Assembly (NCBI GenBank): GCA_043804925.1
Contig: JAZDIP010000022.1
Span: forward strand, 148,931 to 212,930
Direction of reading: 5' to 3'
Length of the DNA stretch: 64,000 nucleotides
Source: a bacterium
GTDB taxonomy: Bacteria; Bacteroidota; Ignavibacteria; Kapaibacteriales; UBA2268
Each line of letters begins with the position of its first letter. Position 1 is the first letter of the stretch. Shown piece after piece: positions 4,896-63,983 of the stretch. Below the pieces are notes generated by a model. That model searched no databases and was not told where the DNA came from. It saw only the letters and a list, made by a program, of their open reading frames with translations. The position numbers and the translations under genes were made by a program.

Positions 4896-5070
4896 ATGGC
4901 ATTATTCAATATTAAAACACAAGATATTGCGATTAAAAGTTGGAATGAAATGTAATCAATGGATAATTGTTAATTGATAATGGATAATGAAAAATATTTC
5001 GGTTAAGTCAGTTGTTACAAAGATTTCATTCTCATACGAACATTCTGTCAAATGTTACATCTGACAGAAC
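4896..5070 (+). pseudogene. Orphan carB 3'-end remnant (mini-ORF MALFNIKTQDIAIKSWNEM*, 4896-4955) plus a duplicated downstream region
   Basis: DIAIKSWNE is identical to the CarB C-terminus, with 3 synonymous nucleotide changes. It is followed by the same heptamer array and a TTCTGTCA/TGACAGAA inverted repeat. Confidence 0.8.
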
Positions 5071-5192
5071 AAAAATATTCTAAATTTTAGTCGTTTGATA
5101 CACCTATCAACAATATATTTATTTGGATAATTAATTATACTGATTTATTTTAGTAAATAGTTAAATTGCTTTTTACTATCAAGGAGATTGTT

Positions 5193-7340
5193 ATGAAAAA
5201 GATTTTGGTTTTTCTTTCACTTCTGTTGATTTTTACTGTTAATTGCTTATCTCAAGACTTTTGGGAAAGGGTAAATGTCCCAAACGACTCACCAGTAATG
5301 GAAATTGCTCAATCACAAACAGGTGAATTATTTGCCGCTTCAGTCGGTGCATACAAATCTATAGATAATGCTGAGTCATGGATGGGAATTAACAAGACAG
5401 AATTCCAGGGACTAACTTTGGATTTGTTCGAAATGTATATTTATTTACGCTCTGTTTTAGTAGCAAAAGATAGTACGGTTTATATTAATATGGGAGATGG
5501 TATTGCATTCAAATCCGAAGATTCGGGTAATAATTGGATTCCATTAATGGATGGTCCACAAAATATTTATAATATTGTCGAAGATGATAGCGGAAGATTA
5601 TTCGCTTTAAAATACAATGGGCTTTATTATTCTGATGATAAAGGGATAACATGGATACAAGTTGAAGGTATTATTGATGAGGAAAACGATTATATCAGAA
5701 GTTGTAAAATGTCCATTACACCATGGGGAGATTTATTTATCCCGATAAAAGGAACTATGATAAAGAGATTAAATAGCGAGGAATATGAAAGTTCAGGTGA
5801 AGGTTTGGATTCAGCATATATCACTTGTTATGCTTTTAAAGATAATATTGTTTACGCCGGTGCAGGAGATAAAAGAGGACTTTTCTTTTCAAATGATTCC
5901 GGGAAAACATGGGCTCAGTTTGAGAGTTTTCCCGAAAATATCAATATTACAGCATTGGCATTCAACGATGCTGGAGTATTTTTCGCAGGAACCGACAGTA
6001 ACGGAGTTTGCATTTCAAATGATAATGGTTTAACATGGGAACAAAATTCACAGATACCTAATCAAGAAATTTATTCAATAAAATCAATTGGGGATAAAGT
6101 TTATATATGTACCAATGGTTTATATGTATCTGATGATGGTACAAACTGGACTTTAAAAAATAACGGATTATCATACCCAGGTGTAGGTGCCCATAATTTT
6201 AATAGCCAAAGTAATCATTATGCTATAACATATTTTAATTTCTTTAAATCAGACGATAATTGTGTTACATGGAATTCAATGGATTTGCCTTTCGATTTTC
6301 GTTACACATCCTTCTTCCTTATAGATAATGAAGATAATATGTATGCTGCCAGCTTCAATGATAACTGGTTTTACTATTCCACCGATTATGGTACGTCATG
6401 GGGAGATGTAAATGACTTGGTACAAAATCTTGGCATTACGATTAATGATGTCATCAGCTTAGCTATGAATAGCAAAGGAGATATATACTTAGCTTTCGAC
6501 GCTGGTGAATCAATTTGGAAATCAACTGATAACGGACACAGCTGGGTATTTTTTATGCAGGATGATATGGCATCGAGATTATTTATTGGTAATAATGATG
6601 AGCTATTAATATATAATCCTATGTACGGTTCAAAATTATCGAAAGATGATGGTGCATCTTGGATAAATATTAACATGAGACCGGCAATTGATGATTATGA
6701 ACAACCGCATCATATTTTAGTTGACGGCAATCTTATTTTTTCGGCAGGTTCCCAAACCGGTTTTTATATATCAACAGATAATGGTGAAACATGGGAAAAT
6801 AAAAATGAAGGCATTGCTCCCAACTTTGAAGAAGGTCCCGAAGGGAGTATTGAAATATTTAAAATTCAATATCTGAATGGTATTATTTACATCGCTACAG
6901 GTAGCGGTATTTATTATTCAGATAATCTTGCGGACACATGGCAACCATTGAACTCAGGAACAGTCAGAGCTAAAGCAGGCGATTTTTTATTCAAGAAAGA
7001 CAATCATTTATATGTTACTTCTTTATCCGGAGTCTATCGCAGCGTAGATGAAATTGTTGATGTTGAGGATGGATTATTAAGTGTTGGAAATGTTAACTTC
7101 AAAATATTTCCGAATCCTGTAAAAGATTTAATTAATATTGATGCTATTGGAAATCCTGAAGGTAAAATAAGAATTACATTATTTGATTTGAGTGGAAATA
7201 AATTATCAACTTTATTTGATGGTTATTGTCAAAACGGGAACATTCAAATCCCCATAAAGCATATTATATCAGGTAGTTATTTCCTAAAACTCGAATCAAA
7301 CTGTGAATCTGTGACAACAGTATTAAAAGTAATTAGATAA
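5193..7340 (+). CDS. Secreted BNR/Asp-box repeat beta-propeller protein with T9SS type A sorting domain
   Basis: AAGGAG RBS before ATG 5193 and a signal peptide. Many S-x-D-x-G-x-T/S-W repeats. C-terminal IFPNPVKD...SGSYFLKL sorting domain. Confidence 0.85.
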   Translation: MKKILVFLSLLLIFTVNCLSQDFWERVNVPNDSPVMEIAQSQTGELFAASVGAYKSIDNAESWMGINKTEFQGLTLDLFEMYIYLRSVLVAKDSTVYINMGDGIAFKSEDSGNNWIPLMDGPQNIYNIVEDDSGRLFALKYNGLYYSDDKGITWIQVEGIIDEENDYIRSCKMSITPWGDLFIPIKGTMIKRLNSEEYESSGEGLDSAYITCYAFKDNIVYAGAGDKRGLFFSNDSGKTWAQFESFPENINITALAFNDAGVFFAGTDSNGVCISNDNGLTWEQNSQIPNQEIYSIKSIGDKVYICTNGLYVSDDGTNWTLKNNGLSYPGVGAHNFNSQSNHYAITYFNFFKSDDNCVTWNSMDLPFDFRYTSFFLIDNEDNMYAASFNDNWFYYSTDYGTSWGDVNDLVQNLGITINDVISLAMNSKGDIYLAFDAGESIWKSTDNGHSWVFFMQDDMASRLFIGNNDELLIYNPMYGSKLSKDDGASWININMRPAIDDYEQPHHILVDGNLIFSAGSQTGFYISTDNGETWENKNEGIAPNFEEGPEGSIEIFKIQYLNGIIYIATGSGIYYSDNLADTWQPLNSGTVRAKAGDFLFKKDNHLYVTSLSGVYRSVDEIVDVEDGLLSVGNVNFKIFPNPVKDLINIDAIGNPEGKIRITLFDLSGNKLSTLFDGYCQNGNIQIPIKHIISGSYFLKLESNCESVTTVLKVIR

Positions 7341-7351
7341 ATCTAAAAAAT

Positions 7352-7398
7352 AATCAGTGAAGCTCTTATTAACAGTACAGAACTTCACTGATTTTTTT
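7352..7398. terminator. Probable bidirectional intrinsic terminator between convergent genes
   Basis: AATCAGTGAAG / CTTCACTGATT inverted repeat flanked by A and T runs. Confidence 0.7.
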
Positions 7399-7411
7399 GT
7401 TAACAGGATTT

Positions 7412-8143
7412 TCATCTCCTCTGATTCTCAATTCCAAGTTTTATTTCAATTGAAAGATCGGGAGGTATATAATCAGGTAGTCCCGGGGCTTCTGATGAAC
7501 CAACCTGCCATTTACTATCCAATATTTTAAGAACATCAAGATTCAAAGCATATTTTACTTCAAAAGAAACAAGGAAATTTTTAATTTCCTGCTCAGATTC
7601 TCGTACATTTATTCTCAAATCACATCCGCCTCCAAGTATTAAATTCAAATTAGATTTTTCATACTTATTCATTTTGTTGTCAAGATATTGAATCCCATGC
7701 ACTTCATTATATTTGATAGGCATAAGCAATTCAGTTTTTGAAAAGCCAATTCCAATTACAGGATGTACTGTTACCATCTTCATATAAGATTCAAAAACAG
7801 ATAGTTCTGCTGATAATGAATAAGTTTGTAATTCTGCATTATAAAATACATTACTTGTTTTTCTTGTAATGGGAAATCTGAAATCCAGTGAATATAAAAG
7901 AAAATACGGCTTGTTTGAAATAATAGGATTGTGATTAACCTTATAGCTTATTCCAAAATAATAAACATGACCCGTTAAATCATCGGTCTTAATGATTTTT
8001 TTCAGCAAAGAATTTATATTGTCAGGATTATCATAATATATCCCGTTTGAAACCGAGAAAATATCTGTTTTCGGATAATAGTAATCATCTGCCCAAGCAG
8101 TTGAAATAATAATTAGAAACGTTATTATGAAAAATGTTTTCAT
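7412..8143 (-). CDS. Hypothetical exported protein, possibly an outer-membrane beta-barrel
   Basis: Signal peptide ending AWA, alternating aromatic/hydrophobic strands. Confidence 0.55.
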   Translation of the reverse strand: MKTFFIITFLIIISTAWADDYYYPKTDIFSVSNGIYYDNPDNINSLLKKIIKTDDLTGHVYYFGISYKVNHNPIISNKPYFLLYSLDFRFPITRKTSNVFYNAELQTYSLSAELSVFESYMKMVTVHPVIGIGFSKTELLMPIKYNEVHGIQYLDNKMNKYEKSNLNLILGGGCDLRINVRESEQEIKNFLVSFEVKYALNLDVLKILDSKWQVGSSEAPGLPDYIPPDLSIEIKLGIENQRR

Positions 8144-8149
8144 ATTATA

Positions 8150-8180
8150 AAAAAGCCCGAAATTTTGTGAAATCCCGGGC
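8150..8180 (-). terminator. Probable intrinsic terminator after the GT2 gene
   Basis: AGCCCG...CGGGCT stem followed by a T run on the minus strand. Confidence 0.6.
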
Positions 8181-8200
8181 TATGACCAAAACATAAAAAA

Positions 8201-9652
8201 CTATTTAGCTAATGCATGCTTCAGCGATAAAGAACCTACCGCTCCGAAGCCAAATAAAAACATAAGTTGGAAAGGTATTGCCGCTATTTCAAGGTAGTAA
8301 GCAGATATTACAATTCCAATAAGAAAATATAAAGTCAACAATAATTCAAAAATAATAGTACCACTAATTTTTTTATCAACATATTTCTTTTTACGCCAAT
8401 CGTCAGTATTCTTTACGATATTATATTTCGGAGTCCTTTCGAATCCTGACTTCTTGTTAATTAAAGCTTCAATAACAGCTTTAGTGTTGTTTACAGCCAT
8501 GCCCATGCTTCCACCAAGGAAAATGGGAAAGAAGAGCAATCTTTTTCTCCAATCGAGATGTAACGCTCTTTGTCCGTAAAGATAAAATAAGAAAGTTGAA
8601 ATCGAAGCAAGAACAAATATTGACATCATAGTGTAATATTCATCATAACCTGCTATGTTATTTTTAATCACAACCAAGGGTATGTTGAGTAAGGCAACCA
8701 ATATAATAAAAGGAAATACTATATTTGAAGTCAAGTGAACGAAACATTCAAGTTTGATTTTCAATGGTTGGTCAGACTTGAAGACCTGCGGTAAAATCTT
8801 CTTAGCAGTTTCAACAGCTCCTTTTGTCCAGCGGAATTGTTGTGTTTTCAAAGCATTAATATCTGCAGGTAATTCAGCAGGGGAAGTTACATTATTAAGA
8901 AAGATGAACTTCCAACCCTTGAGTTGTGCCCTGAAACTTAGGTCCATGTCTTCCGTCAAAGTATCTTCCTGCCAGTTGCCTGCATCAATGATAGTGCTTT
9001 TTCTCCAAATACCTGCAGTACCGTTGAAGTTAATAAAAAATCCTGCTTTGTTACGAACCTGTTGCTCAATAGCAAAATGACCGTCTAAAGCAAGAGCCAG
9101 AGCTCTTGTTAATAGAGAATATTCTTCATTTAAATGTTCCCAGCGTGTTTGCACACATCCAACATTTTTGTCGGAGAACTGGGGAATTGTTTTCAATAAA
9201 AAATCCTTTTTAGGAACAAAGTCAGCATCAAAAATTGCAACGAACTCTCCTTTGGCAATTTCGAGTCCGTACTTTAATGCCCCGGCTTTGAATCCCTGGC
9301 GGTTCTCACGGTGAATATAGTTTATATCGTAACCTTGTTCTCTATAATAGTTAACAAGTCTGTTTGCGATATTTACCGTTTCATCAGTTGAATCGTCAAG
9401 CACCTGAATTTCAAGTTTATCCTTTGGATAATCGAAGTTACAAACAGCGGCAAGCAACCTTTCTATAACATACATCTCGTTATACATTGGCAATTGCACA
9501 GTAACATTCGGTAATACCCCGGGTAAATCCCGTACAGGTGATGTTATTTTCGATGTCTTATGATAGTAATACAGCATTACGATTCCGTGCATACCGAAAC
9601 CGAAAAGAATGCTGAGTCCTAATAAGTAAACAACTAGTATAATATTTTCCAT
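8201..9652 (-). CDS. Membrane-bound family 2 glycosyltransferase (cellulose synthase/CslA-like)
   Basis: DDSTD, GFKAGAL, DADF, TEDMD and QQFRW (QxxRW) motifs with flanking TM helices. Confidence 0.92.
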   Translation of the reverse strand: MENIILVVYLLGLSILFGFGMHGIVMLYYYHKTSKITSPVRDLPGVLPNVTVQLPMYNEMYVIERLLAAVCNFDYPKDKLEIQVLDDSTDETVNIANRLVNYYREQGYDINYIHRENRQGFKAGALKYGLEIAKGEFVAIFDADFVPKKDFLLKTIPQFSDKNVGCVQTRWEHLNEEYSLLTRALALALDGHFAIEQQVRNKAGFFINFNGTAGIWRKSTIIDAGNWQEDTLTEDMDLSFRAQLKGWKFIFLNNVTSPAELPADINALKTQQFRWTKGAVETAKKILPQVFKSDQPLKIKLECFVHLTSNIVFPFIILVALLNIPLVVIKNNIAGYDEYYTMMSIFVLASISTFLFYLYGQRALHLDWRKRLLFFPIFLGGSMGMAVNNTKAVIEALINKKSGFERTPKYNIVKNTDDWRKKKYVDKKISGTIIFELLLTLYFLIGIVISAYYLEIAAIPFQLMFLFGFGAVGSLSLKHALAK

Positions 9653-31741: not shown

Positions 31742-31773
31742 AAATTTCTCCTCTTAATAAATAAAAAATGTTA

Positions 31774-32170
31774 TTGAAAAAGCTATAAGCCGAATTCTGT
31801 CTTGGGTTGCCCCGAGGCAATAATTTATCTGGGAGCAATGTCGCCACTGCCCTCATGCAGCCTACCCGAATACGTAGCTTAAAAAAGCATTGGACGGACA
31901 GTCCTCAGACGCATTCTTATTTGGCTTTGCTCCGCGTCGGGTTTACATAGCAAATCCGGTTACCTGGACTTCTGGTAAGCTCTTGCCTCACCTTTTCAAC
32001 CTTACCTCCATGACTCCCGTTAGGGACGGATTGGCGGTATTCTTTCTGTTGCACTTTCCGTCAGCTCACCCTAAAGCTTACTGCCTTCGCGTTACGAAGC
32101 ACGCTGTCCTGTGGAGTTCGGACTTTCCTCATTCCGATTAAAATCGAAACGCTATTGCCCGCTTTTCCAA
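31774..32170 (-). ncRNA. rnpB: RNase P RNA (bacterial type A)
   Basis: Minus strand has GAGGAAAGTCCGAACTCCACAGG near the 5' end and ACAGAATTCGGCTTATAG near the 3' end. The termini TTGGAAAAGC and GCTTTTTCAA pair as P1. Confidence 0.97.
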
Positions 32171-57497: not shown

Positions 57498-57526
57498 CAA
57501 ACATTTATTTTGGGAAAATGTAAAAA

Positions 57527-58563
57527 GCGAAACGTGAAACGTGAAACGGAATACAATGTCTGACCGCTGATTTAAACTGATTGAGATGATTTCTATGATT
57601 TTCACCTTGTCTTGATTTGTTATTACACTGAGAGGTGAAATTCAGGGATTTCGTAATTCGTTATCAATAAAGGATATATTGGATTTAAAAAAATTAGTTT
57701 CACCTAATGCACCACAGTTTTAGATTTTTTATTTTGTCGGTTTCATTCGACAGTGGAATCTTTTGTACCGACAAGAAAGCAATCCGTTAAGTTTAGATTT
57801 TCAATATATTTACTGCGATTAAAATATAAAATGTCGCATTTGTCGTGTTTTTTTATTTTTTCGTTTTCGGTTGTCGGAACTGTGATTTTTATGATTAATT
57901 TGATTATTATGATTTTTTCGTGAAACGCGAAAACGTGAAACGTAAAACGAAATTCAGTTACACTGAGATACACTGAGAATTCACAGAGTTCCACAGAGAA
58001 TTTTCCGAACAATTAATTTGCAAAGAACGAGATGGACGAAATTACGAGTTTGGTGCGAAATGTAATTTATTTTATTTTGATTTTATTTTAATTATAAAGC
58101 GGAATGTGAAACCAAAGACAATTACACAGAGCTACTCAGAGGATGCACAGAGTTGCACAGAGCTACACACCCCTAACCCCTCTTAATAGAGGGGATTATT
58201 AACATTTCTATTTGCAAAGAACAAGATGGACGAAATTACGAGTTTGGTGCGAAATGTAATTTATTTTATTTTGAAAAGGTTTTTATTTCGTGAAACAGCG
58301 AAACTGCGAAAACGTGAAACGTAAAACGAAAGACAGTTACACGGAGTTACACTGAGAATTCACAGAGTTGCACAGAGAAAATGTCTGAACCGCTGATTTA
58401 GCTGATTGAAATGATTTCGCTGATTTTTTGCTGTCAGGTGTAACAAAGACAGAACGAAATTAAAATGTAGTATGTAAAATGTAGAATGGAAGGCGGTTAC
58501 ACGGAGTTACACAGAGGAGGCACAGAGGGGCACAGAGAAATTAACAATTAGCAATTAACAATT
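57527..58563. repeat. Intergenic modular repeat mosaic between lysA and the defence island
   Basis: (TGAAACG)n heptamers, ACACAGAG-type decamer arrays x4, a duplicated CCGCTGATTTA..CTGATTGA.ATGATTTC module (57555, 58380), a duplicated 85-95-bp block (57917, 58287) and a duplicated 64-bp block (58017, 58211). Confidence 0.88.
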
Positions 58564-58570
58564 GCTTTCT

Positions 58571-59653
58571 CTATTTTCCTGCTTTTCGTCTATTATCTTC
58601 TTTACAGAGCATTTGACAATTTTCAGCTATTGTTTTTCCTCCTAAGTGCCATGGTGTAATGTGGTCTGCTTCCATATCTTCTAATTCAAACTTCTTTTTG
58701 CATTTAACACAAATACCTTTTTGTCTTTCGTAAGATTCTCTTTTTTGGTTATCTGAAAAAGCACGAATGTTTAAATATTTTTCATCTTCAGTAAGAAGAT
58801 ATTCATAGATACCTTTTTTACTCGTAACATCTTCGTCCATCATCAAGCGGACGATTTCCTTTTCAAATGCTTCGGGTACAAATTTTTTATCCTTAAATTT
58901 ATTATATAAAACTCCCCATTCGATGCCCTTCATCTCTTTGCGGTACTTTGGGAAAATTTTCCGGACCCATTCAATCACTCTTTGAAAATAAACCCATAAA
59001 TCCTTAGCGTCATCATCATGTTGGTGCTTTGACATATAGTCTTCTATATTGCCGTTTGAAAGCCAATCGATAGCTGTTTCCAAATATTCCTGACGGATGG
59101 CTGTTCCGCTAAGATAATCATGGCCGATTTGATAAGCGACACATCCGTTTTTGCTGAAATACCGCTTTGCATCGGTTACCCATGAACCCGAATACACAGC
59201 ATTACGCAATTCTTGGTCTGACAACTTTTCTCCGGCAATGTTAATTGTCCTGAACCAATCCAATCTTTCGCTATCAGTGCCACTGCAAAAATATATCATT
59301 AATTTATAATTATGGATTTGCTCTTTTTTATCATCTTGTAGATTATGGAAATATAGTTTCTCAAAAGAAAAATCCCCGTTTACATATTGACAAATTGAAA
59401 TTGTCCGTTGCTGTCCGTCTATAATTTCAAAATTGCCGTCGTCGCGAACATGCCAATACATCACATTCAAAGGAAAATCTTTTTTAATAGTATCAATAAC
59501 AGCATCACGTTGCTTGTCCTTGTAGATAAATTCCCTTTGGTATGGCGGGCGAATGTCAAGTTTGCCTCCAAAACCAATAACACCGTCTTCGGCATTGTCT
59601 TTGTAGCCCTCTGCCAATTGCTTTACGGTAATTTCTTTAAGTTCTATTTTCAT
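58571..59653 (-). CDS. DUF262 (GmrSD-like) domain plus C-terminal HNH endonuclease
   Basis: LDIRPPYQREFIY, IIDGQQR, and C-terminal CVKC...ADHITPW..GG.T...NCQMLC..DN. Confidence 0.92.
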   Translation of the reverse strand: MKIELKEITVKQLAEGYKDNAEDGVIGFGGKLDIRPPYQREFIYKDKQRDAVIDTIKKDFPLNVMYWHVRDDGNFEIIDGQQRTISICQYVNGDFSFEKLYFHNLQDDKKEQIHNYKLMIYFCSGTDSERLDWFRTINIAGEKLSDQELRNAVYSGSWVTDAKRYFSKNGCVAYQIGHDYLSGTAIRQEYLETAIDWLSNGNIEDYMSKHQHDDDAKDLWVYFQRVIEWVRKIFPKYRKEMKGIEWGVLYNKFKDKKFVPEAFEKEIVRLMMDEDVTSKKGIYEYLLTEDEKYLNIRAFSDNQKRESYERQKGICVKCKKKFELEDMEADHITPWHLGGKTIAENCQMLCKEDNRRKAGK

Positions 59654-59661
59654 AACATTTC

Positions 59662-60468
59662 CTATTTCAATAATTTTCTATTTTCCGATTCCGATAAAAC
59701 AATCATTTGATGAATTGCTATATTATTTAATTTGATTAATCTGTCTTTTTGTGGCAATCCGTCACTAATTAGTACTGCATTCAAGCTTTCCATATTCGAT
59801 AAGCAAATTAATTCATTAATCGTCGCATAATCCCTGATATTTCCTTTTAAGTCCGGGTTTGCCTCCCGCCATTGTTTGGCAGTTATACCGAACATAGCAA
59901 CATTAAGCACGTCTGCTTCGCTGGCATAAATAACAGATGTTTGGGCAGTTGTCAATTCTTTCGGAATCAGGTTTTGCTTTATTGCATCAGTATGAATACG
60001 GTAGTTAAGCTTTGCCAATTCACGTTTTGCAGTCCATCCGAGTTGTTTTTGTTCTTCCTCTTTCAACCGCTGAAATTCTTTAATCAGGTATAATTCAAAC
60101 TCGACAGAAATCCAACTTGCAAATTTGAAAGCAATATCTTTATGGGCAAAAGTTCCGCCATAACGTCCTGATTTTGAAACAATTCCTTTAGCATTAGTAG
60201 TGGTAATCCATTTTTGCGGAGATAAAGTAAAAGCATTTAATCCGGCTTCTTTTTTAAACCCCTCGAATTCGAGGTGTTTAAATTCTGTGTTGTTTAAGGT
60301 TTCCCAAATCCCTAAATATTCAATTGTATTTCGATTTCTCATCCAATTTGCTATAACGGCTGTCGGTTCATCGCTTTTATATCTGGCAATATCCGTTATA
60401 GAAACATAATCTGTTTCGTTTATATGCAATATTGAAATGCTCGTTTGTTTAACTTCTATTTTTGCCAT
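59662..60468 (-). CDS. KilA-N domain DNA-binding protein
   Basis: DYVSITDIARYK...I.NWMRNRNTIEYLGIWE, KSGRYGGTFAHKDIAFKFASWIS. Likely start is MAKIEVK at 60468. Confidence 0.88.
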   Translation of the reverse strand: MAKIEVKQTSISILHINETDYVSITDIARYKSDEPTAVIANWMRNRNTIEYLGIWETLNNTEFKHLEFEGFKKEAGLNAFTLSPQKWITTTNAKGIVSKSGRYGGTFAHKDIAFKFASWISVEFELYLIKEFQRLKEEEQKQLGWTAKRELAKLNYRIHTDAIKQNLIPKELTTAQTSVIYASEADVLNVAMFGITAKQWREANPDLKGNIRDYATINELICLSNMESLNAVLISDGLPQKDRLIKLNNIAIHQMIVLSESENRKLLK

Positions 60469-60476
60469 GACGATTC

Positions 60477-60509
60477 TTTGACAGTAATTTCTTTTAGTTC
60501 GATTTTCAT
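60477..60509 (-). repeat. Copy B of the HNH gene 5' end (MKIELKEITVK)
   Basis: 28/33 nt identical to 59621-59653 with all 5 changes synonymous. Preceded by an AGGAAATATT RBS similar to AGGAAATGTT of the intact gene. Confidence 0.9.
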
Positions 60510-60580
60510 AATATTTCCTTTCTACTCCTTCCAATGCTCCCGGAATTTTGAAATATTGCAACAAATTGCAGGGAGAATTT

Positions 60581-60769
60581 TTAAAATGGGCTTTTTATTT
60601 CCAACTGTTTACAAATAATTTTACAGGTTACTTTCACAATTTCATTATGGCGGGGAATACTTGATTGCTTAGCATTTTTTGGATTTTGCCAAATAGTATG
60701 ATTGCCGCCTTCACGAAATTTAATGCATCCATTACTTTTTAGATACCGCTCAAAATCTATTCTTTTCAT
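60581..60769 (-). CDS. hicA: HicA-family toxin (dsRBD-like mRNA interferase)
   Basis: LKSNGC...REGGNHTIW.NP.....IPRH.EI pattern. Confidence 0.9.
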   Translation of the reverse strand: MKRIDFERYLKSNGCIKFREGGNHTIWQNPKNAKQSSIPRHNEIVKVTCKIICKQLEIKSPF

Positions 60770-60996
60770 TAGGCATAAATTAGTTTTCTTTTGAGGACTT
60801 TTTGTTCTTTATAATCATTCTTTAATTGAGCCGATTGGGTATCGAGCAAAAGTTTTAATGCGTCCAATAAATTTTCTTTTAATTCTTCAATAGTCCTGCC
60901 TTGGGATATTGCCGCCGGGAATTCTTCAATTTGTCCTGCGTACCAGCCGCTTTCCTCGTCTTTTTGGATAAATATTGTCAATTTTGCATTTTTCAT
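60769..60996 (-). CDS. hicB: Short HicB-like antitoxin (75 aa)
   Basis: ESGWYAGQIEEFPAAISQGRTIEELKENLLDAL pattern. Likely start MKNAK at 60996 after AGGT. No C-terminal DNA-binding domain. Confidence 0.85.
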   Translation of the reverse strand: MKNAKLTIFIQKDEESGWYAGQIEEFPAAISQGRTIEELKENLLDALKLLLDTQSAQLKNDYKEQKVLKRKLIYA

Positions 60997-61067
60997 TTTT
61001 ACCTTAACCTTAATTAATCTTTTAATTATTAGTTGTGACGATTTACAATCACCGAAATTATTTTCAC

Positions 61068-61118
61068 TCAATCTTCTGCCAATTGCTTTACTGTAATTTC
61101 TTTTAGTTCGATTTTCAT
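61068..61118 (-). repeat. Copy C of the HNH gene 5' end (mini-ORF MKIELKEITVKQLAED*)
   Basis: 41/45 nt identical to 59609-59653 with all 4 changes synonymous. Confidence 0.92.
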
Positions 61119-61152: not shown

Positions 61153-63000
61153 TTAATTTCCATCAACATTAAAATTACTTTTAATTAAATTTAAGAATGC
61201 CGAGTTTCTTAAATGCGCATCTTCTATAACTGCATTGATATCCCATATAAAAACTCCAATTGGTAGAACTTTTTTTGGTTCCAATGAAATGGCTACAGTT
61301 GTTTCTTTATAATACATTTTACCAGAAGAATATAGTTCAGTATATTCACCTGAAAGTTGCAATTCTACTTCTTCATTAAATTCAATAATCCCATAAAACC
61401 AAATTCTTTGAATTTGATTATTATAGTATTGCATTAATTTTCTTGCTCTTTTTTCAAGTTGAGTAATTACTTTCATATTTTCTTCTAAAGATATACCCTT
61501 TTTCTTTAATTCTACGATTACTACATCAAAAGGTTTTGAATTTTTAGGATTATTAGAAAAAATCAAAGCAATATCAATTCTGTCATCATCTCTTTTTACT
61601 TCATTCTCTGTTACAAATTTTAATACATCGGATAATTCTCTATCACTTAAAACAGTTTCATAAGTCATATATTTGTCATCAAGTAACCAAGAATTGTTTC
61701 TATAAATATCATTTATGAAATTCGATTTTTCAAATTTCCCTTCTTTTCGAGTAGGTACAAAAAGTTTATGTAGTTCAAATTCACTGTTGTTACCTGTAGT
61801 TTTCCTTAGTTTTTCAATAGTTAATTGTCTAAATAAAATGTATTCCGTCAAAGACCTTGAGGACATATCTAATGCTTTAATAAACTGTTCATCGGTTAAA
61901 CTGCTTGCATCAAGCAATTCTTTCTGATTTTTAAAAAATTCATTTTGAGCTTTTTGTATAATATCATCCCTTTTGATATAACCAATATTTTCTTTTTCAA
62001 AATATCCAATTAAATGAGGGTATGTTTTTGATAATTTTTTATTTGTATCAAGATTTCGTTCTTTTATTTTTGGAATTTCTTTTTCAATAATCGATGCAAC
62101 TTCTTTTCTGAAAAAGGCTTCGATATCCCTAAGTTCACTTTTTGAAATTGTTAAATCTTGCCTTTGCATATCAACTTTTCCAAGAAAATAATCTGAAAAT
62201 AAAAGAAATACCATTTCATAACCTACTGGAATATTTTCTTCAGCTATTAGATCGATTTTGAAAGTTCTATTGTCAACAGTTACTGCTGAAATAAATGATT
62301 GTGTAGTATTAACTTGAATAATTGAGTAATATAAAGTAAATGTATCAGTTAAATTAATAGTATTATTAATTTCTACGATTTTAAACTCAGGTATATCGGA
62401 ATTGTTTAAAATTTCTTCAGTTCTCTTGCTATCAATTTCTGTTATAATCTTTATTTGAAAATTATGACCGTCATTTTTTAAATGAAAAAGACGTGAATAA
62501 AATTCTTCTAAAATTCGTTTTTTTAAATAAGAGGCATGTATATATTCACTTTTTGCAATCCTATGTAATGTATAACCTTGCATTTTAAAAGTAGTACTTG
62601 ACTCACTTTCTGAAACAATTTTTTCATAAGAATTTGTTTCGTCGAAATTTTCATCAAATTTAAAAACACGATATTTATTTTTATTATAGAAACTTAGAAC
62701 TTCTATTTCATTAAAATAGCATAAATAAACTAATCTACCTAAGCCTTTATGAGTGCTTTCATCTACATCAAATAGAATAGAAAATTTTTTATATCTTTCA
62801 TCTGTAAAACCTTCTCCGTTATCTGAAATTTCAACATGTAAAGTTTCTGGGTGATTTAAGGCTTTAGCTGATATTGTAATAGTGATCTTATCAGCATCAG
62901 CATCAAGTGCATTAGCAATAGCCTCAATGTAAACCATCTCTAATGATGAATTACTAAAAAACATTTTAACAGCTTGATCTAGTTTTACTCTCATACTCAT
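61153..63000 (-). CDS. GHKL (HATPase/MORC-like) ATPase with C-terminal PD-(D/E)xK-like nuclease motif
   Basis: EAIANALDA (N box), ISDNGEGF (G1), KGLGR (G2), and C-terminal RIDIAL...VVIVELKK. Confidence 0.75.
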   Translation of the reverse strand: MSMRVKLDQAVKMFFSNSSLEMVYIEAIANALDADADKITITISAKALNHPETLHVEISDNGEGFTDERYKKFSILFDVDESTHKGLGRLVYLCYFNEIEVLSFYNKNKYRVFKFDENFDETNSYEKIVSESESSTTFKMQGYTLHRIAKSEYIHASYLKKRILEEFYSRLFHLKNDGHNFQIKIITEIDSKRTEEILNNSDIPEFKIVEINNTINLTDTFTLYYSIIQVNTTQSFISAVTVDNRTFKIDLIAEENIPVGYEMVFLLFSDYFLGKVDMQRQDLTISKSELRDIEAFFRKEVASIIEKEIPKIKERNLDTNKKLSKTYPHLIGYFEKENIGYIKRDDIIQKAQNEFFKNQKELLDASSLTDEQFIKALDMSSRSLTEYILFRQLTIEKLRKTTGNNSEFELHKLFVPTRKEGKFEKSNFINDIYRNNSWLLDDKYMTYETVLSDRELSDVLKFVTENEVKRDDDRIDIALIFSNNPKNSKPFDVVIVELKKKGISLEENMKVITQLEKRARKLMQYYNNQIQRIWFYGIIEFNEEVELQLSGEYTELYSSGKMYYKETTVAISLEPKKVLPIGVFIWDINAVIEDAHLRNSAFLNLIKSNFNVDGN

Positions 63001-63983
63001 AATCTCTTATTCCTTATAAATATTCTTCCATATAGTCTATTGCCATTTATATATCCACGACCTTTTTCAATATTTAAATCATATTCATTACCCAAAATCT
63101 CAAACTGTTCAGGATTAAATTTATCAAGGAAAGTAATTGGCACACCCATAGCACCTTTGTAATCCATAGGAATATCTTTGGTTTTGTCAACATTAATAGC
63201 ATCGTAGTTGTCGTACTTGGGATATTCTTCGGGAGTGTATTTCTTATATAGTGTTAAATCTTCGTGTCTTTCTTCATAATCTATATTTGTAAACCACCGA
63301 ACACCTTTAACTCTTATGTATTTTCTGCCATTTTCATCAATTCTGTGACCGGCGGCAGTTATAGGGTAATTATCAGGCACACCGAATTCCCTGTCACCAC
63401 TATGAATACTTGCTCCTAACCATAATTTATTTTCTTTAATTAGTTTGAAAATTTCCTTATAAGTTATTGCATTCTGATTGCCAATAATCACAAACTTTTT
63501 ATCATATTCGATTAATTGTGTAACATATTCCCTGAATAATGAGAAAGGTGGATTTGTAACTACTATGTCAACTTTTTTTAAAAGTTCGATACATTCCTGG
63601 CTACGGAAGTCGCCATTGCCTTCAAGGTGCTTTATACCAATTTCTTCCGGTTCGGGAACTTTGTCACCGTCTTTGTCGCCATTGTATTCAAGGTAAATTG
63701 CTTTCTCGGAATCGTTTTGACTGAACAATTCGGAATTTTGATTTTTATAGCAGGTTGTGATTAATTTTTTCAGTCCTAAGGATTCAAAATTATATGAGAA
63801 ATAATGAAAGAAATTGCTAATACGCGGGTCGTCGCAGTTGCAAAAAACGACTTTGTCTTTAAAGTGTTCTTTGTAATGCCAAAGTTCTTTTTCAATATCC
63901 GAGAGTTGAGTATAGAACTCATCTTTTTTTGCATTTTTTGCAGTATGCAAATTTTTATTTAAGGATTCTTTTTTCAATAGCAT
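62997..63983 (-). CDS. Adenine-specific DNA methyltransferase, EcoRI family
   Basis: KKDEFYTQLSDIE, KVVFCNCDDP, GDFRS.EC, VTNPPFSLF and MGVPITFLDK motifs. Confidence 0.93.
   Translation of the reverse strand: MLLKKESLNKNLHTAKNAKKDEFYTQLSDIEKELWHYKEHFKDKVVFCNCDDPRISNFFHYFSYNFESLGLKKLITTCYKNQNSELFSQNDSEKAIYLEYNGDKDGDKVPEPEEIGIKHLEGNGDFRSQECIELLKKVDIVVTNPPFSLFREYVTQLIEYDKKFVIIGNQNAITYKEIFKLIKENKLWLGASIHSGDREFGVPDNYPITAAGHRIDENGRKYIRVKGVRWFTNIDYEERHEDLTLYKKYTPEEYPKYDNYDAINVDKTKDIPMDYKGAMGVPITFLDKFNPEQFEILGNEYDLNIEKGRGYINGNRLYGRIFIRNKRL

What the first reader, a model, noticed from the sequence alone, without database searches (positions are those of the whole stretch)
59609..61118. HNH gene start occurs three times and delimits two gene cassettes inside an R-M locus
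Seen on the minus strand: copy C (61118, MKIELKEITVKQLAE) - hicB - hicA - copy B (60509, MKIELKEITVK) - KilA-N - intact HNH (59653). The units are 609 bp and 856 bp. All six variable positions among the copies are synonymous third positions, and B retains the AGGAAAT RBS. Copy B's mini-ORF (60509-60456) overlaps the KilA-N start, which has no obvious RBS. Established: EcoRI-family MTase and DUF262-HNH genes are commonly adjacent, and a short ORF in integron attI1 boosts translation of the first cassette. Inference: an expandable cassette array in which each incoming unit supplies a fresh RBS and 5' end for the nuclease, while the displaced start translationally couples the cargo.
Basis: partly seen in the sequence, partly recalled or inferred. 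Interest (0 to 1): 0.76.

Follow-up and report, generated by a model that had tools for sequence, protein, structure and literature searches.

The report
Duplicated nuclease gene starts flank inserted genes
The start of a restriction-nuclease gene really is present three times, because small accessory genes (a toxin-antitoxin pair and a KilA-N gene) were inserted into it with a 40-50-base duplication of the target that keeps the nuclease intact. The same KilA-N gene family carries such duplications at many unrelated sites, which points to a little-known, enzyme-unassigned way of moving single genes.

Summary
On the minus strand the first 37-46 nt of the DUF262(GmrSD_N)-HNH gene occur at 61118 (C), 60509 (B) and 59653 (A, the intact gene). 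The spacings are 609 and 856 bp, and no such match is expected by chance.

In 96 of 113 related loci the EcoRI-family methylase abuts the nuclease with a single start. The window therefore carries three inserts: a GHKL ATPase, hicB-hicA and KilA-N (PADLOC candidate PDC-S22).

The integron-like reading is only partly supported:
- No recombinase or attC-like hairpins were found.
- Stub lengths vary (27-46 nt).
- Most relatives with cargo have no stub.
- Translational coupling is not conserved.

The stubs fit "insertion with long target duplication" (Nobusato 2000; Furuta 2010). Sister loci L065 and L166-168 share the KilA-N stub.

KilA-N relatives elsewhere are flanked by 24-115-nt direct repeats of quite different targets. 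This holds for 12 of 80 loci, against 5 of 416 control genes. L193 repeats the window's architecture on a helix-turn-helix (HTH) gene. Cargo that has left a nuclease locus still carries 11-27 nt of the nuclease start (L116, L054).

The duplicating mechanism is unknown. I rate this a new variant of a known kind.

The parts
62997..63983 (-). EcoRI-family N6-adenine DNA methyltransferase, the first gene of the R-M module
   Evidence: Pfam PF13651, E=1e-143. PADLOC MTase_II. A homologue lies directly upstream of the nuclease in 113 of 117 related loci.
61153..63000 (-). GHKL-type ATPase (615 aa); insert 1. Its start overlaps the methylase stop.
   Evidence: Pfam HATPase_c and HATPase_c_3. Homologues are stand-alone defence-island genes and are never found with this R-M pair, except in L065 at 83% identity.
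61073..61118 (-). Copy C: a dead stub holding nt 1-46 of the nuclease gene. Its mini-ORF is 61118-61068.
   Evidence: C is identical to B over nt 1-26 and identical to A over nt 28-44 (the rare KQLAE allele). Its junction ...GCAGAAGATTGAGTG is shared with the L065 stub.
60769..60996 (-). hicB-like antitoxin (75 aa); insert 2
   Evidence: Pfam UPF0150-like, 22.8 bits, below the 27.3 cutoff. It overlaps hicA by 1 nt.
60581..60769 (-). hicA toxin (62 aa); insert 2
   Evidence: Pfam PF07927, E=7e-11.
60473..60519 (-). Copy B: a stub holding nt -10 to +37 of a nuclease gene start of a different allele (KE, not KQ). Its mini-ORF 60509-60456 overlaps the KilA-N ATG.
   Evidence: Its junction type resembles the decayed stub in L166.
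59662..60468 (-). KilA-N domain protein (268 aa), PADLOC defence candidate PDC-S22; insert 3
   Evidence: Pfam PF04383, E=3e-22. PDC-S22, E=2e-134 over the full length. The family is about 80% identical across phyla.
59608..59663 (-). Copy A: the functional start region (-10 to +46) of the nuclease gene
58571..59653 (-). DUF262/GmrSD_N + HNH nuclease (360 aa), the restriction component
   Evidence: Pfam PF03235 and PF01844. PADLOC REase_II over the full length, E=4e-137. 70-80% identical homologues occur across many phyla.

Best explanation
The locus is a two-gene Type II restriction-modification module: an EcoRI-family methylase followed directly by a DUF262-HNH nuclease. It has taken up three accessory units between its two genes.

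Copies C and B are dead stubs left by insertions that landed inside the first 37-46 bp of the nuclease gene and duplicated that stretch. This is 'insertion with long target duplication'. The upstream copy is cut off from the gene. The downstream copy stays joined to the rest of the gene, so the nuclease is never inactivated.

The agent is not specific to the nuclease. The KilA-N (PDC-S22) gene family, and a Bro-N gene, show the same signature at many unrelated targets. They typically sit at the very start or very end of a neighbouring gene. When they move on they can carry a few bases of the previous target with them.

The present three-copy array needed at least two events. One is the old KilA-N insertion shared with L065 and L166-168. 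The other brought in hicBA, either as a further insertion or as recombination between two diverged sister loci.

Shown: the structure, the empty sites, the shared and independent examples, and the enrichment over control genes.

Inferred: the molecular step that makes the duplication. Candidates are replication template switching, or ends-in (Campbell-type) recombination of a circularised fragment that carries a short homologous stretch. Also inferred: the 26-47-nt repeats allow cargo to be lost again as 609-, 856- or 1465-bp circles.
For: Empty sites:
- 96 of 113 related loci have the methylase stop within 30 nt of a single nuclease start.

Shared event:
- L065 has methylase, GHKL, stub, KilA-N, nuclease. 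Its stub junction GCAGAAATGAGTG matches C.
- L166-168 have methylase, a decayed stub (26 of 30 nt to the L065 stub), KilA-N at 82% identity, nuclease.

Mosaic origin:
- Between the window and L065, GHKL is 83% identical, KilA-N 65% and the nuclease 73%.
- B is a different allele from A and C.

The signature follows the cargo:
- L193: KilA-N sits at +42 of an HTH gene, whose start is duplicated upstream. L254 resembles the empty site, but only distantly (37% identity in the neighbouring gene).
- L116: a 62-nt repeat flanks KilA-N (88% identical to the window's). ATGAAAATTGA, the nuclease start, follows 8 nt after its stop in a non-R-M context.
- L169/170: a repeat of at least 93 nt.
- L054: a Bro-N gene plus nuclease nt 1-27 lies inside a 79-nt repeat.

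Enrichment:
- Flanking repeats (E<=1e-5, both copies within 200 nt of the gene) occur in 12 of 80 KilA-N loci against 5 of 416 control ORFs, p=5e-7.
- By context cluster the figures are 5 of 43 against 5 of 416, p=1e-3.
- Two of the five control hits are themselves KilA-N or Bro-N cargo.
- The repeat sequences differ between loci.

Precedent:
- PMC2853133 reports 46-bp and longer target duplications around inserted R-M units that carry no mobility genes.
- PMC3457768 gives two candidate pathways.
Against: - No recent filled-versus-empty pair at near-identical sequence was found for the window itself. The order and number of events therefore cannot be resolved.
- C looks chimeric (nt 1-26 like B, nt 28-44 like A). 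This needs either gene conversion or a crossover inside the repeat.
- hicBA was not found next to a nuclease of this family anywhere else.
- Most KilA-N contexts (about 75-90% of clusters) show no repeat, and neither do cargo-bearing loci such as L005, L021, L024, L032 and L045.
- Some weak repeats in the viral set look like similar terminators rather than duplications.
- Control ORFs came from bacterial flanks, whereas most KilA-N test loci came from viral contigs, so the backgrounds are not matched.
Confidence: 0.6

Rival explanations
1. This is the first reader's model: an integron-like, expandable cassette array. A dedicated site in the nuclease 5' end captures circular cassettes. Each cassette brings a fresh ribosome-binding site and start, and the displaced start is kept to couple translation of the cargo.
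For: - Two units lie in tandem, each bounded by a start copy.
- B and A share AGGAAATRTT before the ATG.
- B's mini-ORF overlaps the KilA-N ATG, and the L065 stub ORF stops 7 nt before the KilA-N ATG.
- C and B are identical over 26 nt, as expected if a crossover occurred there.
Against: - No integrase lies in the locus or in 14 kb downstream, and there is no attC-like hairpin.
- Stub lengths differ (27, 37 and 46 nt).
- Only 4 lineages among about 117 nuclease loci carry stubs, and about 10 cargo-bearing loci have none.
- Synonymous sites of the 5' end are only mildly constrained.
- The C mini-ORF ends 72 nt before hicB, and the L166 stub is in frame with KilA-N, so coupling is not conserved.
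- The same signature occurs at unrelated targets.
Confidence: 0.1
2. There was only one duplication event, the ancient KilA-N insertion. C and B are then the same stub inherited by two diverged sister loci. One unequal or illegitimate recombination joined methylase-GHKL-stub of an L065-like locus to hicBA-stub-KilA-N-nuclease of an L166-like locus, which placed the two stubs in tandem.
For: - C shares the junction ...GCAGAA(G)A(T)TGAGTG with L065, and GHKL is 83% identical.
- B's junction and the window's KilA-N (82%) are closer to L166 than to L065 (65%).
- B is a different nuclease allele.
- Cargo leaving such loci takes stub pieces along (L116, L054).
Against: - No locus with hicBA upstream of a stub or a nuclease was found.
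- C matches the resident allele A (KQLAE) over nt 28-44, which needs an extra gene conversion.
- The original duplication still needs a mechanism.
Confidence: 0.2
3. The repeats are an assembly artefact: strain variants with different cargo were collapsed or chimerically joined at the shared nuclease start.
For: The source is probably a metagenome contig. The hicBA-containing arrangement is seen only in the window. L169/L170 show that assemblers do break at such repeats.
Against: - The longest exact identity between copies is 26 nt, below usual assembly k-mers. That threshold is my own inference.
- The stub-KilA-N-nuclease arrangement recurs in independent assemblies: L065, and L166-168 from three samples.
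- Repeat-flanked KilA-N genes occur in contigs whose IMG/VR identifiers look like isolate-genome entries (L247-L252). The isolate origin is inferred from the identifier format, not stated by the tool.
Confidence: 0.03
4. The stubs are kept by selection as regulatory upstream ORFs or leader peptides. They would tune expression of cargo and nuclease within one operon, whatever their origin.
For: - All differences between copies within the shared codons are synonymous.
- Each stub keeps its ATG and an open frame of 16-17 sense codons before the stop.
- No terminator is predicted between the genes.
Against: - Synonymous-only differences are equally expected if the stubs were copied from different functional alleles.
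- The L166 stub has decayed and is interrupted by a hairpin.
- Frame and spacing relative to the cargo are not conserved.
Confidence: 0.07

Closest known systems
Insertion with long target duplication (Nobusato, Uchiyama, Ohashi & Kobayashi, Gene 2000; Furuta, Abe & Kobayashi, NAR 2010, PMC2853133)
   Same: - A DNA unit without integrase or transposase is flanked by direct repeats longer than 30 bp (46 bp in H. influenzae).
- The repeat sequence is single-copy in the empty site of relatives.
- Repeat length is variable.
- It is associated with R-M loci.
- The mechanism is unknown.
   Different: - There the inserted unit is a whole R-M system. Here the inserts are a toxin-antitoxin pair and a KilA-N gene placed inside an R-M operon.
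- Two units lie in tandem on the same target.
- The target is the first 40-46 nt of a coding sequence, so a gene start is regenerated.
- The signature tracks one cargo family (KilA-N/PDC-S22, and also Bro-N) across many targets.
Integron gene-cassette arrays (attI/attC, IntI; ORF-11 translational enhancement)
   Same: Tandem small promoterless units lie in one orientation, each bounded by a repeat. A short upstream ORF could aid translation of the next gene.
   Different: There is no IntI, attI or attC hairpin. The repeats are copies of the target gene's own start. Their lengths vary, and they are absent from most relatives that carry cargo.
Integrative elements that replace the 5' end of their target gene (for example SXT/R391 in prfC; recalled from memory)
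   Same: Insertion into a gene's 5' end leaves the gene functional, because a replacement start lies next to the remainder of the gene.
   Different: Those elements are about 100 kb and encode a tyrosine recombinase acting on a fixed short core. These units are 0.6-0.9 kb and encode no recombinase.
Accessory genes embedded in R-M operons (prrC inside the Type IC locus EcoprrI; review PMC12707154)
   Same: Non-R-M defence genes are lodged between R-M genes and probably co-transcribed. This may provide a back-up that senses inhibition of the restriction enzyme.
   Different: That precedent concerns function, not how the gene was inserted. No flanking duplication is described there, and the function of the cargo here is untested.
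Tandem duplication followed by homologous substitution from a diverged locus (Lim et al., MBE 2012, PMC3457768, fig. 6A(ii))
   Same: It yields direct repeats separated by foreign DNA without any transposase, and it fits the mosaic nature of these loci.
   Different: It was proposed for rRNA genes. It does not by itself explain why one cargo family shows the pattern at many different targets.

Membership tests
Insertion with long target duplication (criteria of PMC2853133) | The insert is flanked by direct repeats longer than 30 bp | tested here: met
   B/A: 47 nt at 85% identity. C/A: 46 nt at 91%. C/B: 37 nt at 89%, with the first 26 nt identical.
Insertion with long target duplication (criteria of PMC2853133) | The repeat sequence is present once at the uninterrupted site in related genomes | tested here: met
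   96 of 113 related loci have the methylase directly followed by a single nuclease start. The relatives are 70-80% identical, not same-species.
Insertion with long target duplication (criteria of PMC2853133) | No mobility gene in the insert, and insert shorter than 20 kb | tested here: met
   The inserts are 609 and 856 bp and encode only HicB/HicA and KilA-N. No recombinase was found in the 14 kb downstream.
Insertion with long target duplication (criteria of PMC2853133) | The insert contains both the R and the M gene (an operational criterion of that survey) | tested here: not met
   The inserts carry a toxin-antitoxin pair and a KilA-N gene. In L054 the segment between the nuclease-start stub and the intact start does include the methylase.
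Insertion with long target duplication (criteria of PMC2853133) | The repeat is not a multicopy genomic element | tested here: met
   There are only three matches in the 64-kb window. The rest of the genome was not available.
Integron cassette array | An adjacent intI tyrosine recombinase and an attI site | tested here: not met
   No Phage_integrase hit in the locus or in 14 kb downstream. The side beyond the methylase lies off the window.
Integron cassette array | attC imperfect inverted repeats at each cassette end | tested here: not met
   No inverted repeat lies at the unit boundaries. The boundaries are copies of the nuclease start.
Type II R-M module (EcoRI-family methylase + DUF262-HNH nuclease) | Methylase and nuclease domain content, and conserved adjacency | tested here: met
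   PF13651; PF03235 and PF01844; PADLOC MTase_II and REase_II over the full length; adjacency in 113 of 117 loci.
Type II R-M module (EcoRI-family methylase + DUF262-HNH nuclease) | Sequence-specific methylation and cleavage of unmethylated DNA | not testable with these tools
   Needs biochemistry or methylome data.
HicAB toxin-antitoxin | A HicA toxin domain next to a HicB antitoxin | tested here: inconclusive
   HicA PF07927 is above its cutoff. The partner has only a UPF0150-like hit at 22.8 bits, below the 27.3 cutoff. The two genes overlap by 1 nt.
KilA-N / PADLOC PDC-S22 | An N-terminal KilA-N domain and a full-length match to the PDC-S22 profile | tested here: met
   PF04383, E=3e-22. 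PDC-S22, E=2e-134, residues 3-266. Defence activity is untested.

The most novel reading that the evidence does not exclude
KilA-N (PDC-S22) genes, and probably Bro-N genes, may be autonomous or semi-autonomous single-gene mobile elements. They would insert at the extreme 5' or 3' ends of other genes by a reaction that duplicates 25-115 bp of the target, and so never inactivate that gene. The KilA-N protein itself would take part in the reaction, or in excision through the repeats. Such elements would be a main route by which R-M operons, defence islands and phage genomes acquire single 'moron'-like genes. They would also give the first identifiable agent for the long-unexplained 'insertion with long target duplication'.
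Probability: 0.15. Interest if true: 0.85.

Novelty: new variant of a known kind. Interest (0 to 1): 0.6.

Why it matters
How single accessory genes get into operons, defence islands and phage genomes without transposases is poorly understood. 'Insertion with long target duplication' has been on record since 2000 with no known agent or mechanism.

This locus, with its relatives, shows that the process can hit the first 40 nt of a coding sequence and still leave the gene intact. It also shows that two units can stack on one target.

Most importantly, one very widespread and highly conserved gene family (KilA-N/PDC-S22) carries the signature at many unrelated targets. That makes the question experimentally approachable: one can test excision circles, recA dependence and dependence on the KilA-N protein.

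It also documents that a compact, cross-phylum Type II R-M module is a hotspot for embedded defence-type cargo (KilA-N, Bro-N, ORF6N, HicAB, nucleotidyltransferase-like genes, a GHKL ATPase).

Tried and rejected
1. GHKL as a guide to sister loci. The metagenome scan and the protein search found only one close relative, L065. All other homologues sit in unrelated defence islands, so GHKL is cargo and not part of the R-M pair.
2. Looking for stubs through N-terminal extensions of called KilA-N proteins (the ENRTKRNY frame). None was found.
3. Exact-protein look-ups of the window's nuclease and HicA found nothing on record. A HicB scan of viral contigs gave no relative.
4. Population variation around one nuclease allele (P0110, 23 contigs) showed only the canonical arrangement.
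5. Homology between the regions upstream of the ATGs of C, B and A, or a remnant of the KilA-N 3' end upstream of C, was not significant.
6. The idea that the L116 unit is a circular permutation, with the left part of the nuclease stub in its leader, found no significant similarity.
7. The idea that the nuclease 5' end is a conserved DNA site found only a mild A-rich codon bias.
8. The AlphaFold2 model of KilA-N had mean pLDDT 48.5 from a shallow alignment, so no fold search was run. The PDB sequence search gave no hit.
9. Sigma-70 promoter and terminator scans were uninformative: 29 sites found against 28.7 expected.
10. A possible 18-nt nuclease-start remnant at the Bro-N gene start in L045 cannot be told apart from an ordinary MK... 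start.
Full report
**1. What is in the sequence**

Read on the minus strand, the region holds six co-directional, tightly packed genes. Pfam and PADLOC identify them as follows:
- an EcoRI-family adenine methylase (62997-63983; PF13651, MTase_II);
- a 615-aa GHKL ATPase (61153-63000), whose ATG overlaps the methylase stop;
- a HicB-like gene (60769-60996; sub-threshold UPF0150 hit);
- HicA (60581-60769);
- a 268-aa KilA-N protein (59662-60468), which matches the PADLOC defence candidate PDC-S22 over its full length (E=2e-134);
- a 360-aa GmrSD_N(DUF262)+HNH nuclease (58571-59653), which matches PADLOC REase_II over its full length.

The nuclease start ATGAAAATHGAACTNAAAGAAATTAC occurs three times, at 59653 (A), 60509 (B) and 61118 (C). 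No match is expected by chance, and the spacings are 856 and 609 bp.
- C matches A to about +46. It then reads GATTGAGTG..., giving the mini-ORF 61118-61068.
- B matches to about +37 and also shares 9 of the 10 nt before the ATG with A. Its mini-ORF 60509-60456 overlaps the KilA-N ATG at 60468.
- C equals B over nt 1-26. C equals A over nt 28-44, the rare KQLAE allele. B carries the family's common KE allele.

One small correction applies: B's codon 12 differs non-synonymously from A.

**2. What the normal locus looks like**

The nuclease belongs to a very conserved family, 70-80% identical across Bacteroidota, Ignavibacteriota, Chloroflexota, Acidobacteriota, Planctomycetota, Patescibacteria and even an archaeal MAG. 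It is also present on plasmids, annotated as 'DUF262' next to an 'EcoRI family methyltransferase'.

In 113 of 117 loci with a full nuclease gene, a methylase homologue lies upstream on the same strand. In 96 of those the methylase stop is within 30 nt of the nuclease ATG, often as an ATGA overlap. These are the empty sites.

Fifteen loci have a gap of more than 150 nt that holds cargo:
- KilA-N (window, L065, L166-168; fragments in L005 and L070);
- Bro-N (L045);
- ORF6N (L024);
- a nucleotidyltransferase-like gene (L021);
- DUF6932 (L005);
- unknown ORFs.

GHKL homologues elsewhere are solitary defence-island genes, for example next to AbiEii and DUF4365. They are never with this R-M pair except in L065. 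The window thus carries three inserts.

**3. Where else the nuclease start is duplicated**

Scans of all nuclease loci found extra copies only in three other places.
- L065 (an Ignavibacteria MAG). The order is methylase, GHKL (83% identical), stub, KilA-N, nuclease. Its stub runs to +46 and has the same junction as C: GCAGAAATGAGTG against GCAGAAGATTGAGTG.
- L166-168 (three samples). The order is methylase, a decayed stub that matches the L065 stub at 26 of 30 nt and is interrupted by a perfect 9-bp hairpin, KilA-N (82% identical to the window's), nuclease.
- L054 (Cytophagales). A Bro-N gene's stop overlaps ATGAAAATAGAACTCAAAGAAATTAC (nt 1-27 of the nuclease gene). It lies upstream of the methylase.

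About ten cargo-bearing loci have no stub. The loci are mosaics. Between the window and L065, GHKL is 83% identical, KilA-N 65% and the nuclease 73%. The window's KilA-N is 82-88% identical to those of L166 and L116.

**4. The repeats follow the cargo, not the nuclease**

The KilA-N family is about 80% identical over thousands of sequences and mostly sits alone in unrelated contexts.

L116. The KilA-N gene (88% identical to the window's) is followed, 8 nt after its stop, by ATGAAAATTGA. These are the first 11 nt of the nuclease gene, at the window's spacing, yet no nuclease gene is present. The whole unit lies between 62-nt direct repeats (88% identical) that encode the C-terminus of a small ORF.

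L169/L170. The KilA-N gene (83% identical) lies between repeats of at least 93 nt (97% identical), which form the upstream region of a DUF4258-MqsA pair. Both contigs begin exactly at the repeat.

The viral set. I ran a scan of viral contigs with a KilA-N alignment (80 loci) and compared 800-nt upstream and downstream flanks by blastn.
- The direct repeats are 24-115 nt long and 80-100% identical.
- The upstream copy ends 18-120 nt before the ATG, and the downstream copy starts 19-70 nt after the stop.
- The repeat sequence differs between context clusters.
- Several repeats end in a stop codon, so they are the 3' end of the upstream gene.

L193. The repeat is the first ~42 nt of the downstream HTH gene (MSDNIVKKVYKELG against MNNENIVKKVCKELG). 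The stub's ATG overlaps the stop of the upstream gene. This is exactly the window's architecture on another target. L254, a distant relative (37% identity in the neighbouring gene), has the two flanking genes adjacent without KilA-N.

L054. The Bro-N gene plus its nuclease stub lies inside a 79-nt repeat (95% identical), and a second 66-nt pair sits next to the methylase.

Control. Of 416 random 200-350-aa ORFs from the nuclease-locus flanks, 5 had such repeats (E<=1e-5, both copies within 200 nt). Two of those five are the L065 KilA-N gene and the L054 Bro-N gene. The comparison with KilA-N loci:

| Set | KilA-N with repeats | Control ORFs with repeats | p |
|---|---|---|---|
| All viral loci | 12 of 80 | 5 of 416 | 5e-7 |
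| Context clusters | 5 of 43 | 5 of 416 | 1e-3 |
| Clusters plus six non-viral contexts, control excluding the two cargo ORFs | 8 of 49 | 3 of 414 | 1e-6 |

Caveats: the control ORFs are bacterial whereas most test loci are viral, and some weak hits are probably similar terminators.

**5. Interpretation**

The structure fits 'insertion with long target duplication'. This was described for whole R-M units, with repeats longer than 30 bp (46 bp in H. influenzae), no mobility genes and no known mechanism (PMC2853133). PMC3457768 lists two pathways: insertion with duplication, or tandem duplication followed by homologous substitution from a diverged locus.

Here the inserted units are accessory genes, and the target is the first 37-46 nt of the restriction gene. 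The upstream copy becomes a stub and the downstream copy keeps the gene whole.

Long duplications explain why these units can sit at the extreme ends of genes without killing them. Cargo that has left a nuclease locus keeps 11-27 nt of the nuclease start (L116, L054). This shows imprecise, recombination-like transfer rather than base-precise site-specific recombination.

For the window, at least two events are needed. The KilA-N stub is old, being shared with L065 and L166-168. hicBA came either by a further insertion or by unequal recombination between an L065-like locus (GHKL-C) and an L166-like locus (B-KilA-N). I cannot order the events. C's chimeric pattern needs either a crossover inside the repeat or gene conversion.

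The differences between copies are all synonymous. That is what one expects if the copies derive from different functional alleles, so it needs no selection on the stubs.

**6. Why the integron-like model is not favoured**

- No recombinase was found in the locus or in the 14 kb downstream, which holds a LysA-type Orn/DAP/Arg decarboxylase, a TPR protein, AAA ATPases and an RmlD-family gene.
- There are no inverted repeats at the unit ends.
- Stub lengths are variable.
- Stubs are rare among cargo-bearing relatives.
- Synonymous constraint in codons 2-10 is only mild (ratio 0.8 against 1.0, p=0.026) and is explained by AAA/GAA preference.
- Translational coupling is plausible for B and KilA-N, but C ends 72 nt before hicB and the L166 stub reads in frame into KilA-N.
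- Promoter and terminator scans add nothing.

An assembly artefact is unlikely. The longest exact identity between copies is 26 nt, and the stub-KilA-N arrangement recurs in independent assemblies. Repeat-flanked KilA-N genes also occur in contigs whose identifiers look like isolate-genome entries; the isolate origin is my inference from the identifier format.

**7. Function (inferred)**

The cargo is probably co-transcribed with the R-M genes. By analogy with prrC inside EcoprrI (PMC12707154), it may act as a back-up or sensor module. This is untested.

The 26-47-nt repeats should allow occasional loss of hicBA (609 bp), of KilA-N (856 bp) or of both (1465 bp). Each loss would leave an intact nuclease gene.

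**8. Verdict**

- The closest known kind is insertion with long target duplication, of which this is a new variant. The cargo is non-R-M, the units are tandem, the target is a 5' coding end, and the signature tracks one cargo family.
- The literature search found nothing linking KilA-N to such duplications.
- The most novel reading not excluded is that KilA-N/Bro-N genes are themselves mobile elements responsible for the duplication.

Noticed in passing
window 57500-58570: The 1-kb non-coding stretch just downstream of the nuclease stop holds four ~74-nt modules (57927, 58091, 58306, 58466). Each carries 4-5 copies of a 10-nt unit TACACNGAGN. There is also a 78-nt pair (58016/58210, 91% identical) and runs of CGTGAAACG. 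The pattern has 4 hits against 0 expected in the window and none in the 259 fetched loci. It looks iteron-like and its function is unknown.
   Followed up: partly
window 31770-32170 (-): Bacterial RNase P RNA class A (Rfam RF00010, 276 bits). No tRNA genes were found in the whole window.
   Followed up: no
L158-L162 (GHKL homologue at 5001-6842): The GHKL ATPase family of window 61153-63000 is elsewhere a solitary gene between an AbiEii-domain gene and a DUF4365 gene. It has no PADLOC model, so it may be an undescribed defence gene.
   Followed up: partly
L054 7014-8916: Nested long duplications. A Bro-N gene (7224-8078) plus nuclease nt 1-27 lies inside a 79-nt direct repeat (7014-7092 / 8179-8256, 95% identical). 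A second 66-nt pair (7117-7181 / 8853-8916) lies just before the methylase, with about 600 nt of unknown DNA in between.
   Followed up: partly
L166 245-340: The decayed nuclease stub between the methylase and KilA-N is interrupted by a perfect 9-bp hairpin, CCCACGAAT-TT-ATTCGTGGG, followed by a G run. The gene caller fused the whole stretch to KilA-N, giving a 299-aa product.
   Followed up: no
L169 1-93 and 1290-1382; L170 1-93: Two independent metagenome contigs begin exactly at the repeat of at least 93 nt that flanks KilA-N. This would be expected if the population is polymorphic for the insertion.
   Followed up: no
L024 8131-9283: A transposase gene (313 aa) splits the methylase gene of an otherwise canonical locus. 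An ORF6N gene sits directly before the nuclease.
   Followed up: no
L155 8001-8231; L156 8001-8237: In two long viral contigs the nuclease gene stops matching after 77-85 codons, although the methylase is intact. These may be larger insertions or deletions inside the nuclease gene.
   Followed up: no
L070 and L076, upstream of the nuclease: ORFs that look like REP-associated or IS200-like transposases (identified by eye from motifs such as MPTHFHFLV, without a profile search) lie directly upstream of the nuclease in place of, or after, the methylase.
   Followed up: no
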